DNA of 64,000 nt. It comes from Mobula birostris (Eukaryota). Position numbers: made by a program. The stretch covers positions 215,138,031 to 215,202,030 of the forward strand of contig NC_092371.1 in assembly GCF_030028105.1 (NCBI RefSeq), in the 5' to 3' direction. Positions 30,501 through 36,500 of the stretch are shown piece after piece. How positions within the stretch are numbered: position 1 is the first letter of the stretch; each line of letters begins with the position of its first letter.

Positions 30501-33500
30501 ATCAGTGGAAACGATGAGTCAACTTTTCGGGCTGGAACGTCCTGACAAAGGGTTCCGGCCCGAAACGTTGACTCATCGTTTCCACTGATGCTGCCCGACC
30601 GAACTCAGCGTGCTGTGAGTGTTGCTTTGATCCCAGCATCTGCAGATTATTTTGTGTTAGTCTGACTTCAGTGGGTGGGAAAATGTTGAGTCCATTATGT
30701 ATGAGGTTTCAGGGTACTTGGAAGTACATGATAAAATAGGCCAAAATCAGAATGGTTTCCTTAAAGGGAAATCTTGCCTGTTGAATTCTTTGAGGAAATA
30801 ACAGGCAGGATAAACAAAGGAGAGTCAGTAATCTTGTTTACTTGGATTTTCAGAAGGCCTTTGGCAGCTTAGCAAGGTAAGAGCCCACGATGTTACAGGG
30901 AAGATACTAGCTATTAGTAATCAGTGTTCTACAAGGGTCGGTGTTGGGACTGCTTCTTTTCACGTCATGTCAATGATTTGGATGACAGAATTGATGGCTT
31001 TTTGGATGACACAAAGATAGGTGGAGGGGTAGGTAGTGTTGAATAAGCAGAGAGTTTGCAGAAGGACTTGAGACAGATTGGGAGAATGGGCAAAGAGTGG
31101 TAGATGGAATATAGTGTAGCGAAGTGCATGGTCATGAAGTTTGTTAGAAAGAATAAAGGTGTAGACTATTTTCTAAACAGGGAGAAAATTCAAAAATTAG
31201 AGGTGAAAGGGACTTGGGAGTTCTTGTGTGGGATTCCTTAAAGGTTAACTTGCAGATTGAGTTGGTGGTAAGGAAGGCAAATGGAATGTTAGCATTCATT
31301 TTGAGAGGACTAGAATATGAGAGCAATGATGTAATGCTGAGGCTTTATAAGGTATTGGTCAGACCGCACTTTAAATATCGTGAGCAGTTTTGGGCCCCTT
31401 ATTTAAGAAAATGTGTGCTGGAATTGGATAGGATCAAGAGGAGGTTCACGAGAATTATTTTGGGGGTGAAATGGTTAATGTATGAGGAGCATTTGATGGT
31501 TCAGGGCCTGCACTCACTGGAATTTAGAAGAATGACAGGGGATCTTATTGAAACCTACTGAATATTGTAAAGCCAGACATAAACTGGAAGAGGAGAGGAT
31601 ATTTCCTATAGTGAGTGAGTCTAGGCCCAAAGGGTATTGTCTCAGATTAAAGGAACCTCCATTTAGCACAAACACTAAGGTGAATTTATTTAGCCATATG
31701 TTAGTGAATTTGTGGAATTGAGTCTATTTAAAGCTGAGGATGATAGGTCCTTGATTTGTCAAGGCGTAAAGGCTACAGGAAGAAAGCAGGAGAATGGGGT
31801 TTGAGAAGAATAATAAAGCAGCCATGATGGACTGGTGAAGCAGACTTGATGCGCCAAATGCCCCAATTCTGCTTCTATGTCTTATGGTCCAAGTCACAGG
31901 ATATGTCATATTACAATACACCATTAACACAATGTACCTATGCCTCTGAACCCTATGTTTCTCTACCTCTTTTGGATACGTTCTCTATGGCACGTACATA
32001 TAGGATATCTCTAGAGGTGGATGGTTCTGATTACGTGAAGAGAGTTGAGATACTGCAACGGATAAACTGAGAGATGTTTAAAATGATTAAGTATTTTGAT
32101 AGTGAGGGAGGAAATGTTTCTCATTTGGAGAAGTCAGCAACTAAAATGTTAAAATTACCACGCAGGGAATGAGGAGAAAAGTTGGGAGAAATATGTATAA
32201 TGACATAGATTACAATCACTCATCTTTAGCCAGAAGCACACATCTCAAATGCAATTATGACTATAAACCAAGGAGAATGCAAAGTTTTGTAGTGGACTAG
32301 CACTGTGGGAGTTTTGTAAAATGCTCAATAAACAGCTGGTCCAGACCCAATGACTGATTGGGTTCTGTATTAATATGGTATTTATAACCTACTGTAACAA
32401 ATATTTAAAAAATTGTGAACAGTTAATTGAAATGTACATTATACAAACATGTTTATGGTGTATTTAAGGTACTTATCTACCAGTACCTGTGCATTTTTAA
32501 AACGCTGAGTCCATCTTACATCTATTACACCTTAATATTAATTTTCCTGTATTTTAGTAAATAATCGTTTTACATTACTTCAGAGATTTAAAATTGTGTT
32601 TCCTTTCTTTTTGTCAAGCCATATATATGTACTATTTCAATATGGCCATTATAAGGACGGAATCAGAACACGATTCTTGGAATGTCACATCATTAAGTGA
32701 CTGCTTTAAAAGGCTCAGCATTAAAACCGTTATCGGCGTCAGTACACAAAATTACATTATAGAACCACTAACAGTGCAACGAGGGCATCGAAAAGGGTGA
32801 GATTTTACTGACACAACCCAGTACGATCAGTCGTTCATCGTCTCTGCTTTCCTATCTATAACGCTCACACACTTGTTGCCTTTGATGTAAAACCGGAGAG
32901 GTTTGCTAACCCACTCCCCTGCATAACCTATACCAATTCGGCTCGTAGAGATTATATCAGTTTCAACAATGGCTTCGGGACCTCGTTCCATCCAGAGACC
33001 CGTGCCCGTGGCCAAGTGCTCCTTGTTAAAGCTCTTGGTGATGTCCAGCGCTTGGCACAGTTTGGAGGGGCCGTTACACAACTGGTGGTCTTTGAGGGGC
33101 TTGCCCCCCGCCCTCCTCCGCTGGCCGCGGAGCCCCCTCATGGCATCGAGTCCCTGCAGAGGCTCCAGCGAGCGCACCAGCACGGCCGCTCCGTCGCCCT
33201 GGCTCGACACGTTGAGGCAGAAGTACACGCCGTAGATCTGGTAAACATACAGCGTGCCCGGGCTCATGAACATCGCCTCATTCCGGAAGCTCCGCCTGCC
33301 GCCGCGGGAGTGCGAGGCCTGGTCCTCCCCGCCCAGGTAAGCCTCGGTCTCCACAATCCTGCCCCTCAGCTCGGTGCCGTCGGCCAACTTCCGCACCATC
33401 ACCTGACCCAGGAACTCCCGGGCCAAAGCCACGCACGGCCGGCTGAAGAAGTCCCACAGGAGCCGGCCGGGGTGTGACAAGCCAGCGGGAAGTTGCTCGG

Positions 33501-36500
33501 TGCAGGCCGCGCCATCCTGCAGGGTCTCCGCGACCGCGCCGTCCTCAGCAGCCGCCTGCAGTCCGCTGGATGGCCCACGCCTCCCTGGGCTTGCGGCGTG
33601 CGCCAGCCCCCTTCTCCTCCATGCCATTTCCAGCAGAACCTGCTGCAGCCCGGAATCCTGCGGCACTTAACTCTGCTCACCCTCGGAACAGGAAGTAGGA
33701 GCCAGTCCCGACAAACGACCACTCCGGGCGTCCTAGTTCATCCCCAGCACCTTCACTGGTGTGTCCCAATTCAAACGCTCTGCTGCGGTATCACGGTTTT
33801 GCCTTCGGCCGAGCAAGTTAAAAGAGCTGCAAGGTTCTTGCTATTTTACCGTGTTAAATTACCTACAATCTGTGTGCCCTTCTTTGTCAAGCGACTCATC
33901 TAGAAATTCAAATTCCACCGCGGCCGTGATGGAAATTAAATTCAGCAATCAGCGGTTTAAAAAAAAGAGCGACTAACTCTCAGGAATCAAACTCTCCTGA
34001 CTACTGGATTCTGTTCACTGATGCCCCCTAAGGGAGGAAATCTGACATTAGGTGTGAGTCTCCTAGCAGAATGATTGACTCAATTTGGCATCAGCAATGA
34101 ATTCCAGTCAGTGTCCCACAGATCCTCAGAAGTAAATAAAAAAAAGGATCAAATTACTCGCCCCGAATGTTTCCCAAAACCAAGCGATTATATTAATACA
34201 GACGATCTCAATTCCTCACATTAGCCCCTCCCCCCGAATTACATCCCCTGAATCCTCACCATATCTGTTGGGTTTTTCAGCCAGTCCATATCCAAAGCTG
34301 CTTCCCGAGTTTTTCTATGTCTTCTGGTCAATTCACCCCAAGCAAATGCTGATCCTGACTACTCTGATATCCGTCTACCCCAAGTGTCCCAACGCCAAGA
34401 GCTTCAAATCGGCTGGGAAAAAAAAAACAAGGCATCAAGCGGTATATTCAAATTGTATAAGGTATATTGAATAATTACAAATGGATGAACCACATAGATT
34501 CATTTCGCTTCTTCACTGCCAATACTGTACTAAACCAAAAATGAATATCTATATACCTCATCAAAGGTTAAAGCACGACGTAGTCCGCACATCTGGGGAT
34601 GCCGCTGGGCAGAACCTAGACAACTCAGGAGCATCTCAGGAAATCAGTAGGAAAAGTCAGCTCTTGGGACAATCTGCTCTTCAACGATGGAAACCGAAAC
34701 AAAACAGCTCATGACATACGGGAAAGTTCTCTATGTTTTCAGATTTAAATTTCCTTGCTCACTATTTCCAGGTACCGTAATTACTGACAGAAATTACGTC
34801 TGCCTGCATAAAAATTGCAAGCACCTGTTAAGAATTCAAAATACCAGCTTCCTAGTACATTTCTGTTCAGTTTTTAAAGCAATCCCGAATTCTGAGCCCT
34901 GGGCCTTGTTTTTCCTATCCCCAGTATTAGAGGCTCTGCAGTATTGTGAGTGTTGTGAATGTCCTCGCAGAACCTGCCTACCCCGGTAAGGCGACTTATT
35001 CAATTCACCTGCTGACCGTTTCCCTCCATGGAGCATTCCGCCTTTCCTAGATGTTAAATTTGGATTGATGGAATAAACCCCTTGTTTCCAAAGCCACGCA
35101 TTACTGCAGTGGGTATGTTATTATGGGGGAGGGGGCCCTGCTGAACACGCCAGTCGTGGCATAAAACAGGGCCTTTGTGTAGGCGTGTTGAGATGTAAAA
35201 AAGCCTTAAGGCATGTGGCATGAGGCAAGAGGCAGCACTGGCAGTACCCTCCTGCACCGGTTGACTCATCACGTCGGAGGATGCCTGTCTGTAGAAAGTC
35301 CGGTGTTCCACTGGCGTTACCGGCTCCAAGTCTTTACGTTGGTGGACGGCCGCGGCGTCCGGTGAAACAGGCATCACCACCACCGGGAATAGATGCATCA
35401 TCACAAGGACGCCTTTCCATCACGTAAATGGGTGGTGGGTAGCAAGCTGGAACCAAGCAGGAGAAGAAATTGAACAAATCGTCTTTACTTCATTTCAACA
35501 AAATACAGTGCTGTATAAAAATACCTATCATCACAGACACCCGTAAAACATTCAGTGGCATAACTACAGGGTCAGTGTGCGGTGGAAAATGTAATGGATA
35601 TGGCCCGAAGTTAGCCAGGGAGTTTGATCATAACGTGGCTCAGTTGAATGTGTCCTATCTGCGATCCATTAAGTCTGAATTCAAATCCACAGTCACGACA
35701 AAATGAAAAGCCCGACACGTTAAGAGGATACACAGAAGGCTGCTGATGCTGGAATCTGAAGCAAAAGAAACGCAATTTATCAGAGCAACTGAGTGCGTCA
35801 GGAACAGTCCGCAGAACATCGACTGTCCACATGCCTCCAGGGATGCTGCCTGACCCGCTGAGTTTCTCCAGCAGTTTGCTTTTATTAAAAACTGTAGAAA
35901 GAATCCTACTTCTGTAACCGCACTGAGAATAATGAATTGCTGAGTGACATCACGATGTCCCGTAAATTGCCATTCTTTTCTGTAGGGAATATCTGTACAA
36001 TGAAATGTGTAGTTCGTTGTCAATAAATTACCATTGTAACAGTATTGTGCCTTAAATAACAGCGGTCAGCATGAGAAAAAGTGCATACTACGATCTTCAT
36101 AGCTGAACTGGTGCTGTACTTGCCCTCTTCTCAGTAGAGGGGAGGAGGTACAGGAGCCCGAAAACCCACACTTTACCTTTTAGGATCAGATTTGTCCCCT
36201 CTGCCATCAGATTTCCGAATAGTCCGCGAGCCCATGAATACGACCTCGCACTTCTTTTGAAAGTTTTATTCATGTGTTAATTATAACAACTTATAGTAAT
36301 AAGTTTATGTCGTACACTGTGCTGCCACCCCAAGATGTCCCTCCATATATCAGTGATAACAAACTTCATTCTGATTCGGTTTTTCAGTGTTCAGTTCTGT
36401 TTTTGCAGATGGTTCATATCTCAGGTGTATGCTACACTCGGCTGCACATGTTTGCTTATAATTGGATCTGTCTGTTTGTTTGCCGTTAATCAGAAGGCGA

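What the first reader, a model, noticed from the sequence alone, without database searches (positions are those of the whole stretch)
32827..33627. Intact but intronless MPG: candidate functional retrogene
Seen: the whole AAG catalytic domain is one uninterrupted ORF, including FLGQ|V (33403/33402) and SSQG|D (33198/33197). Residues equivalent to human E125, Y127, H136, Y159, Y162, Y165, N169 and R182 are present, and the M164 position is V. Known (from recall): human and other bony-vertebrate MPG genes are multi-exon, with introns at about these two positions. Inference: an mRNA-derived copy or complete intron loss, kept functional by selection. No poly(A) remnant or TSD is visible, so the event would be old.
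Basis: partly seen in the sequence, partly recalled or inferred. Interest (0 to 1): 0.75.

Follow-up and report, generated by a model that had tools for sequence, protein, structure and literature searches.

The report
Relocated single-exon MPG repair gene in ray
This manta-type ray carries its DNA-repair gene MPG as one uninterrupted, well-conserved coding exon beside the gene FAM167A instead of at the usual globin-side position, which suggests that an old mRNA-derived copy replaced the original gene.

Summary
Window 33627..32827 (minus strand) is a 266-codon ORF encoding a complete MPG/AAG glycosylase domain (Pfam PF02245, E 1.7e-61; human AAG structures, E ~1e-86). All eight listed active-site residues are present, and the M164 position is Val.

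The gene looks functional. The eight residues are invariant in 16 of 16 cartilaginous-fish sequences, and the domain has no indels.

The new result concerns position. No NPRL3 or RHBDF1 exon was detected in the 64 kb. The only other gene found is FAM167A, 26.6 kb downstream, and it keeps its intron. MPG and FAM167A sit on the same contig in 17 of 17 elasmobranch species. In 11 of 11 bony vertebrates with large contigs they sit on different contigs. A 2026 paper reports that cartilaginous-fish globin clusters abut Rhbdf1 directly, with Nprl3 on another chromosome.

MPG therefore left its bony-vertebrate position before sharks and rays split (~270 Mya). Relocation plus an intron-free CDS favours an ancient retrogene that replaced its parent (confidence ~0.55). 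It is not proven:
- No poly(A) tract or target-site duplication survives.
- Exon structures in other species could not be examined.
- A DNA-level move followed by intron loss remains open.

The parts
32827..33627 (-). MPG/AAG coding sequence in one exon: ATG at 33627, 266 codons, TGA at 32829-32827
   Evidence: It is the only MPG-like sequence in the window.
33667..33669 (-). In-frame TAA 13 codons upstream of the ATG; it bounds the ORF at its 5' end
33628..34000 (-). CpG-rich 5' flank, promoter-like (inferred). GC is 0.57-0.61 up to about 33800, and CpG observed/expected is 0.8-1.2 up to about 34000.
   Evidence: No transcript data, so the start site and any 5'UTR intron are unknown.
31685..32826 (-). 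3' flank from the stop to the first canonical AATAAA (31690-31685); possible 3'UTR (inferred). No A-rich tract.
5807..6175 (-). FAM167A coding exon 1 (residues 1-123), followed by a GTAAGC donor. It is the downstream neighbour of MPG on the same strand.
3260..3523 (-). FAM167A coding exon 2 (residues 124-210) after a ...AACAG acceptor, with TAA at 3262-3260. The 2283-nt intron is retained.

Best explanation
This is the ray's working alkyladenine (3-methyladenine) DNA glycosylase gene, the orthologue of the single MPG of sharks, skates and rays. Its whole coding sequence lies in one exon.

It does not sit between RHBDF1 and NPRL3 beside the globin genes, as MPG does in bony vertebrates. It sits 26.6 kb upstream of FAM167A, and this linkage is shared by all elasmobranchs for which data were on hand.

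The most likely history is as follows (inferred). Between about 460 and 270 Mya, a spliced MPG mRNA was reverse-transcribed and inserted beside FAM167A. It came under a CpG-rich promoter. It took over when the original copy at the globin locus was lost. That makes it an 'orphan' retrogene.

Shown here: an intact intron-free CDS, protein-level constraint, the new neighbourhood and its age. Inferred: the RNA intermediate, the loss of the parent, and that all elasmobranch copies lack introns.
For: - **Intact gene.** The domain is full length and the active-site residues are present. Only 1 of 20000 shuffles of the ORF stays open.
- **Whole CDS collinear with a shark protein.** Pristiophorus residues 1-269 align to 33627..32830 in one segment.
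- **Constraint across 16 cartilaginous-fish sequences.** The eight residues are invariant in 16 of 16. Domain identity to the window is 78-99% with 0 inserted columns. The N-terminal tail is only 11-100% identical.
- **One copy.** There is one strong locus in the window. The profile search gives E 1.4e-130 for it and 4.2 for the next best of 3321 ORFs. Each named cartilaginous-fish species appears once among the best 120 hits. The tree follows the species tree: cartilaginous fishes 100/98, batoids 100/99.
- **Bony-vertebrate intron.** Trachemys isoform X4 has a 34-residue insert between the residues matching Q143 and G144. It is the only internal insert in 111 named proteins. Human MPG has five or six exons according to review passages in PMC12347255 and PMC6651865.
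- **Relocation, within the window.** Pfam scans covered 300 of the 311 ORFs of 60 or more residues and all 550 ORFs of 38-59 residues. They found MPG, FAM167, reverse-transcriptase fragments (RVT_1, ALKBH8_N) and scattered weak single-ORF hits (E 0.0017-0.05) to unrelated families. They found no NPR3 or Rhomboid family.
- **Relocation, across species.** MPG and FAM167A lie on contigs of identical length in 17 of 17 elasmobranchs.
- **Adjacency.** RefSeq accessions are consecutive in Amblyraja, Heptranchias, Hemiscyllium, S. torazame and Hemitrygon. They are 2-4 apart in Hypanus, Narcine, Stegostoma and Leucoraja. In S. torazame the locus tags are adjacent (scyTo_0017075 and 0017076) on one 97,564-bp scaffold. 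In C. punctatum the GenBank ids are consecutive.
- **Bony-vertebrate contrast.** In 11 of 11 bony vertebrates with large contigs the two genes are on contigs of different length.
- **Literature.** The order rhbdf1-mpg-nprl3 is conserved in teleosts, gar and coelacanth (passages of PMC3525417 and PMC4259306). In cartilaginous fishes the globin cluster is flanked by Aanat2 and Rhbdf1, and Nprl3 is on another chromosome (passages of PMC13023373).
- **Neighbour keeps its intron.** FAM167A retains a 2283-nt intron, so intron loss is not a property of the region.
Against: - No poly(A) tract and no target-site duplication are present. This is expected after 270 My or more, but it leaves no direct mark of retroposition.
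- The exon structure of MPG in other elasmobranchs, chimaeras, lamprey or any bony fish was not examined. No eukaryote genome collection was on hand.
- Only one of the two claimed intron positions has support from data here. The other position, and the human ones, are recalled.
- NPRL3 also left the globin locus in cartilaginous fishes. DNA-level rearrangement therefore struck this same region, and a block move is plausible.
- Whether the MPG-FAM167A pair lies on the chromosome that carries RHBDF1 and the globins is unknown.
- Exons shorter than 38 residues, and the 11 unscanned low-complexity ORFs, could hide a neighbour.
- A 5'UTR intron cannot be excluded.
- Contig length and accession order are proxies for position.
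- No outgroup fixes the direction of the move.
Confidence: 0.55

Rival explanations
1. DNA-level rearrangement. A chromosomal break or translocation carried MPG, perhaps together with NPRL3, from the globin locus to the FAM167A region. The introns were lost separately, for instance by recombination with a cDNA at the locus.
For: NPRL3 is reported to have been translocated away from the globin cluster in cartilaginous fishes (PMC13023373 passages), so the region was rearranged at the DNA level. No poly(A) tract or TSD is present.
Against: No NPRL3 exon was detected within 27 kb 3' or 30 kb 5' of MPG. FAM167A occupies the side where NPRL3 lies in bony vertebrates. This account needs two rare events, a move and the loss of every CDS intron, where retroposition needs one. 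That intron loss is rare in vertebrates is recalled knowledge.
Confidence: 0.27
2. Ancestral state. An intron-free MPG beside FAM167A is the original gnathostome condition. Bony vertebrates moved the gene next to NPRL3 and gained the introns.
For: No outgroup position or exon structure for MPG was obtained. The papers read give no lamprey MPG location.
Against: It requires gain of several introns plus a relocation on the bony-vertebrate stem. Intron gain is very rare in vertebrates (recalled). NPRL3-globin linkage is shared by lampreys and bony vertebrates (PMC13023373 abstract). This shows that cartilaginous fishes hold the derived arrangement for this block.
Confidence: 0.08
3. Processed pseudogene, or a young untranslated retrocopy whose ORF is still open by chance.
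For: The CDS has no intron. Expression was not tested.
Against: The domain is 78-89% identical to sharks and skates with no indel. All active-site residues are kept, while the tail has diverged. The linkage is at least ~270 My old. No other MPG locus is in the window or among the best 120 hits. Only 1 of 20000 shuffles keeps the frame open.
Confidence: 0.03
4. Assembly artefact, with cDNA or transcript sequence built into the contig.
For: None beyond the lack of introns.
Against: The ORF is continuous with ordinary flanks and there are no N runs. A 264/266-identical protein is annotated in Mobula hypostoma. The same neighbour is seen in 17 species from independent assemblies.
Confidence: 0.01

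Closest known systems
Human alkyladenine DNA glycosylase (AAG/MPG; PDB 1BNK, 1F4R, 1EWN, 3QI5, 7XFH)
   Same: It has the same single-domain fold family (PF02245, full profile). It aligns over residues 52-262 with one 1-residue gap at E ~1e-86. The residues at positions 125, 127, 136, 159, 162, 165, 169 and 182 are identical.
   Different: The human gene has five or six exons (review passages) and lies next to NPRL3 and RHBDF1. Here the CDS is one exon beside FAM167A. The M164 position is Val. The N-terminal tail is unrelated in sequence.
Orphan (parent-replacing) retrogenes of vertebrates, as described for the human genome (recalled; no paper read here)
   Same: An intron-free functional copy sits at a new locus and no parental copy is detectable.
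   Different: It is much older than most described cases (at least ~270 My) and has no surviving poly(A) or TSD. The retro-origin rests on synteny plus intron absence only. The large vertebrate retrocopy surveys found here (bioRxiv 10.64898/2026.06.24.732306 and 10.64898/2026.06.26.734816; passages read) do not name MPG as a retrocopy. The first survey's method starts from a parental mRNA in the same genome, so it would miss a copy without a parent.
Translocation of Nprl3 away from the globin cluster in cartilaginous fishes (PMC13023373)
   Same: It is the same ancestral block (Rhbdf1-Mpg-Nprl3-globins) and the same lineage. MPG has also left that block.
   Different: That paper does not mention MPG (0 occurrences). 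MPG is not next to any detectable NPRL3 exon here, and it has lost its CDS introns, which a plain translocation would not cause.

Membership tests
MPG/AAG alkylpurine DNA glycosylase (Pfam PF02245) | Complete Pur_DNA_glyco domain above the curated cut-off | tested here: met
   207.2 bits against a cut-off of 27; profile 1-181 of 181
MPG/AAG alkylpurine DNA glycosylase (Pfam PF02245) | Catalytic Glu (human E125), base-pocket Y127/H136/Y159, intercalating Y162, N169 and R182 (roles recalled) | tested here: met
   Present at window residues 95, 97, 106, 129, 132, 139 and 152. Invariant in 16 of 16 cartilaginous-fish sequences.
MPG/AAG alkylpurine DNA glycosylase (Pfam PF02245) | Excision of alkylated or deaminated purines | not testable with these tools
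   Needs an enzyme assay
Functional retrogene (processed gene copy) | Lacks the introns of the parental gene | tested here: met
   The CDS is uninterrupted. An intron at SSQ|G in a turtle is inferred from an isoform insert. The FLGQ|V intron is only recalled.
Functional retrogene (processed gene copy) | Lies at a locus other than the parental one | tested here: met
   It lies next to FAM167A, and no NPRL3 or RHBDF1 exon was detected. The two genes share a contig in 17 of 17 elasmobranchs and are on different contigs in 11 of 11 bony vertebrates. The direction of the move is inferred.
Functional retrogene (processed gene copy) | Poly(A) tract at the 3' end | tested here: not met
   No A-rich 20-mer in the 4 kb 3' of the stop
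Functional retrogene (processed gene copy) | Target-site duplications | tested here: not met
   The best flank repeat is no better than controls: 55 of 500 shuffles and 72 of 300 real segments reach its score
Functional retrogene (processed gene copy) | Purifying selection on the ORF | tested here: inconclusive
   The protein-level pattern is clear: domain 78-99% identical with no indels, against a tail of 11-100%. dN/dS could not be computed because no orthologous DNA was on hand.
Functional retrogene (processed gene copy) | Transcription | not testable with these tools
   No RNA data. The exact 266-residue protein is in the public protein collection.

The most novel reading that the evidence does not exclude
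All sharks and rays may run alkylation base-excision repair on a retrogene that is at least 270 My old. Under this reading, when the ancient Rhbdf1-Mpg-Nprl3-globin block was broken up on the cartilaginous-fish stem, MPG survived only as an mRNA-derived copy beside FAM167A, while NPRL3 moved as DNA. That would make it one of the oldest parent-replacing retrogenes of a housekeeping repair enzyme in vertebrates. It would also be a second, independent exit from the classic alpha-globin regulatory neighbourhood.
Probability: 0.45. Interest if true: 0.6.

Novelty: new member of a known kind. Interest (0 to 1): 0.5.

Why it matters
MPG, NPRL3 and RHBDF1 frame the alpha-globin locus, one of the best-studied conserved gene neighbourhoods in vertebrates. 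A 2026 study showed that NPRL3 left this neighbourhood in cartilaginous fishes. The data here indicate that MPG left too, that it landed beside FAM167A before sharks and rays diverged, and that at least in the manta lineage it is intron-free.

If the retrogene reading is right, an essential-class repair enzyme has been supplied for hundreds of millions of years by a processed copy with a recruited promoter. It would also be a datable case of gene replacement by retroposition. Surveys that start from a parental mRNA in the same genome, as one of the two read here does, would miss it.

If the reading is wrong, the case is still a clean example of complete intron loss in a relocated vertebrate gene.

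Tried and rejected
- **Relic exons of a parental MPG.** tblastn gave weak plus-strand hits at 29473-29616 (E 0.012) and 23144-23209 that were collinear with the protein. A profile of 119 MPG proteins scored them at E 11 and 95. Rejected as chance.
- **Candidate TSD.** A 10-nt exact repeat lies at 33892-33883 and 32619-32610. It is not above controls, and no A-run precedes the 3' copy. Rejected.
- **Search for NPRL3 and RHBDF1 exons.** Pfam scans of 850 ORFs found none. I had no NPRL3 or RHBDF1 protein to run against the window, so exons under 38 residues remain unchecked.
- **CpG-island-like kilobase at 41001-42000.** No Pfam, Rfam or tRNA match, and no convincing ORF.
- **Exact human intron positions.** Vickers et al. 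1993 (PMC46315) is not held, and one more search added nothing.
- **Location of MPG in lamprey or in cartilaginous fishes.** The passages returned from the papers read give no such location in their main text. The supplementary synteny figures of PMC13023373 were closed and may bear on this.
- **Prior description.** No paper holds MPG + retrogene + intronless + glycosylase. The papers found for retrogene + cartilaginous fish + parental gene do not name MPG as a retrocopy.
- **dN/dS.** Not possible without orthologous DNA.
- **Joined FAM167A protein.** It was not built. The two exons were handled separately.
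Full report
**What is there.** On the minus strand a stop-to-stop ORF spans 33666..32827 (279 codons). From the ATG at 33627 it encodes 266 residues and ends in TGA at 32829-32827. An in-frame TAA lies 13 codons upstream. The window has no N runs.
- The protein matches Pfam PF02245 (methylpurine-DNA glycosylase) over the whole profile, at E 1.7e-61.
- It matches the solved human AAG structures at E about 1e-86, with one single-residue gap.
The functional roles of these residues are recalled.
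- Only 1 of 20000 shuffles of the ORF stays open.

**Whose gene it is.** The exact protein is in the public collection on a contig of 250,740,734 bases.
- Its 90% cluster holds Mobula hypostoma (264/266 identical), Hypanus sabinus and Hemitrygon akajei.
- The Mobula birostris FAM167A-like protein lies on a contig of the same length as the window's. The window is therefore most likely from a manta or devil ray.
- In a tree of 23 proteins the cartilaginous-fish MPGs form one clade (100/98), and the batoids, with the window, form another (100/99).
- Each named cartilaginous-fish species appears once among the best 120 hits. A more diverged second copy ranking below the best 120 of 2407 would not have been seen.

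**Is it functional?** I compared 16 cartilaginous-fish sequences.
- The eight active-site residues are invariant in 16 of 16. Position 164 is V, L or I.
- The domain (residues 56-262) is 78-99% identical to the window, with no inserted column.
- The N-terminal tail is 11-22% identical in sharks, 51-71% in other batoids and 100% in Mobula hypostoma.

This contrast is the pattern of a protein under purifying selection. dN/dS proper could not be computed because no orthologous DNA was on hand. Expression was not testable.

**No intron in the CDS.** A sawshark MPG protein (residues 1-269) aligns in one tblastn segment to 33627..32830. The start codon and the whole CDS are therefore collinear with the genome. 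A profile of 119 MPG proteins finds this one locus (E 1.4e-130) and nothing else among 3321 ORFs; the next best is E 4.2. Two weak plus-strand matches that looked like relic exons were rejected on that basis.

**Do bony vertebrates have introns at these points?**
- Review passages say that human MPG has five exons, including 1a and 1b (PMC12347255), or six exons (PMC6651865).
- The paper with the exact positions (PMC46315) is not held. The human positions remain recalled.
- One position has support from data here. Among 111 named MPG proteins, the only internal insertion is a 34-residue in-frame insert in Trachemys scripta isoform X4. It lies exactly between the residues matching Q143 and G144.
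- That insert is what an alternative exon at an intron in SSQ|G would give.
- Nothing comparable was found for FLGQ|V.

**Neighbourhood.** I scanned the window's ORFs against Pfam: 300 of the 311 ORFs of 60 or more residues (the 11 of lowest complexity were dropped) and all 550 ORFs of 38-59 residues.
- The credible families were Pur_DNA_glyco (one ORF), FAM167 (one ORF, E 5.9e-42) and reverse-transcriptase fragments (RVT_1, ALKBH8_N). The rest were scattered weak single-ORF hits (E 0.0017-0.05) to unrelated families.
- No NPR3 or Rhomboid family appeared.
- FAM167A lies on the same strand, downstream of MPG. Exon 1 is at 6175..5807, a 2283-nt GT..AG intron follows, and exon 2 is at 3523..3263. 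I searched and mapped its exons separately and did not build the joined protein.
- In bony vertebrates the order rhbdf1-mpg-nprl3-globins is conserved (passages of PMC3525417 and PMC4259306).

**The neighbourhood is shared and old.** Per-protein contig lengths from the cluster look-ups show MPG and FAM167A on contigs of identical length in 17 of 17 elasmobranch species for which both were available.
- The species are: the window / M. birostris, M. hypostoma, Hypanus, Hemitrygon, Narcine, Amblyraja, Leucoraja, Heterodontus, Heptranchias, Cetorhinus, Carcharodon, Scyliorhinus torazame, Stegostoma, two Chiloscyllium species, Rhincodon and Hemiscyllium.
- RefSeq accessions of the two proteins are consecutive in five species and 2-4 apart in four more. 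They are further apart in the rest: 14-30 in M. hypostoma, 15 in Heterodontus, 18-24 in Rhincodon and 14-23 in C. punctatum; 126 in Cetorhinus; 763 in Carcharodon; 4977 in C. plagiosum.
- In an older S. torazame assembly the two genes carry adjacent locus tags on one 97,564-base scaffold. In C. punctatum the GenBank ids are consecutive.
- Five species had data for only one of the two genes: Rhinoraja, Mustelus, Pristiophorus, Pristis and S. canicula.
- In 11 of 11 bony vertebrates with large contigs the two genes are on contigs of different length. They are Protopterus, Rhinatrema, Bombina, Ascaphus, Discoglossus, Mixophyes, Dendropsophus, Anomaloglossus, Carettochelys, Trachemys and Emydura. 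Eight bird species at scaffold level also differ.
- Contig length and accession order are proxies for position, not coordinates.

PMC13023373 (abstract and passages read) states that in most cartilaginous fishes the globin cluster is flanked by Aanat2 and Rhbdf1. It also states that Nprl3 is on a separate chromosome. It dates the shark-batoid split to about 270 Mya, the split from chimaeras to about 415 Mya and the split from bony fishes to about 460 Mya. It does not mention MPG. Its supplementary synteny figures, which I could not see, may bear on this.

**Hallmarks of retroposition.** None survives.
- No A-rich 20-mer occurs in the 4 kb 3' of the stop, and the first AATAAA is 1137 nt downstream.
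- The best direct repeat between the flanks is no better than controls.
- The ORF is a GC-rich, CpG-rich island in AT-rich surroundings. GC3 is 0.77 overall, 0.90-0.92 in codons 51-150 and 0.54 in the last 67 codons. The flanks are 25-49% GC, and FAM167A GC3 is 0.50 and 0.67.
- This fits a short gene lying inside its own CpG-island promoter. It does not tell the hypotheses apart.

**Reading.** The gene is the functional elasmobranch MPG. It left the Rhbdf1/Nprl3/globin block and settled beside FAM167A before sharks and rays split. In this ray its CDS has no intron.
- One event, retroposition followed by loss of the parent, explains both the relocation and the intron-free CDS. I rate it about 0.55.
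- A DNA-level move followed by separate intron loss is the main rival, at about 0.27. It is made plausible by the known translocation of NPRL3.
- An ancestral intron-free state (about 0.08), a pseudogene (about 0.03) and an assembly artefact (about 0.01) are unlikely for the reasons given under each rival.
- The decisive test is the exon tables and synteny of mpg in other cartilaginous fishes and outgroups. It needs eukaryote genome annotations, which were not available here.

**Novelty.** Two searches are the basis for saying that this is not in print as far as I could search.
- No paper in the library holds MPG together with retrogene, intronless and glycosylase.
- The papers found for retrogene + cartilaginous fish + parental gene do not name MPG as a retrocopy.

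Parent-replacing retrogenes are a known kind, so this would be a new and unusually old member of that kind.

Noticed in passing
window 3260-6175 (-): A complete two-exon FAM167A coding sequence. It is 86.5% and 95.6% identical, by exon, to the Pristis pectinata protein. It has a 2283-nt GT..AG intron.
   Followed up: yes
window 56204-56737 (-), 15314-15727 (-), and others on both strands: Fragments of non-LTR retrotransposon reverse transcriptase (RVT_1, with the ALKBH8_N model matching beside it) are scattered through the window. Some lie in the 26.6 kb between MPG and FAM167A.
   Followed up: partly
window 58511-59485 (-): This is the longest ORF of the window apart from none larger (325 residues). 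It has no Pfam match at E 0.01 or below. Its C-terminal half carries a Cys/His-rich motif that recalls the end of LINE ORF2 proteins (recalled resemblance only).
   Followed up: no
window 41001-42000: A second CpG-island-like kilobase (GC 0.51, CpG observed/expected 0.83). It has no recognisable coding exon, Rfam family or tRNA. It may be a non-coding first exon or the promoter of a gene outside the window.
   Followed up: partly
window 26001-32000: Strong positive GC skew (0.19 to 0.33 in 2-kb windows) on the plus strand just 3' of MPG. Cause unknown.
   Followed up: no
P0005 (Narcine bancroftii MPG model): The annotated protein departs from all others over the last 27 or so residues, and its tblastn match to the window stops at 32911. 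This may be an annotation or assembly problem, or a real C-terminal change.
   Followed up: no
P0004 (Solemya velum, 417 aa): A mollusc protein with two tandem MPG domains. Residues 3-182 and 206-412 both align to the window ORF.
   Followed up: no
P0002, P0244, P0003 (skate MPG models of 311, 313 and 381 aa): The skate models carry N-terminal extensions or an internal N-tail insert of about 110 residues (Rhinoraja). These have no counterpart in the window.
   Followed up: no
window 9384-9463: Two head-to-tail copies of a 40-nt unit, 97% matching.
   Followed up: no
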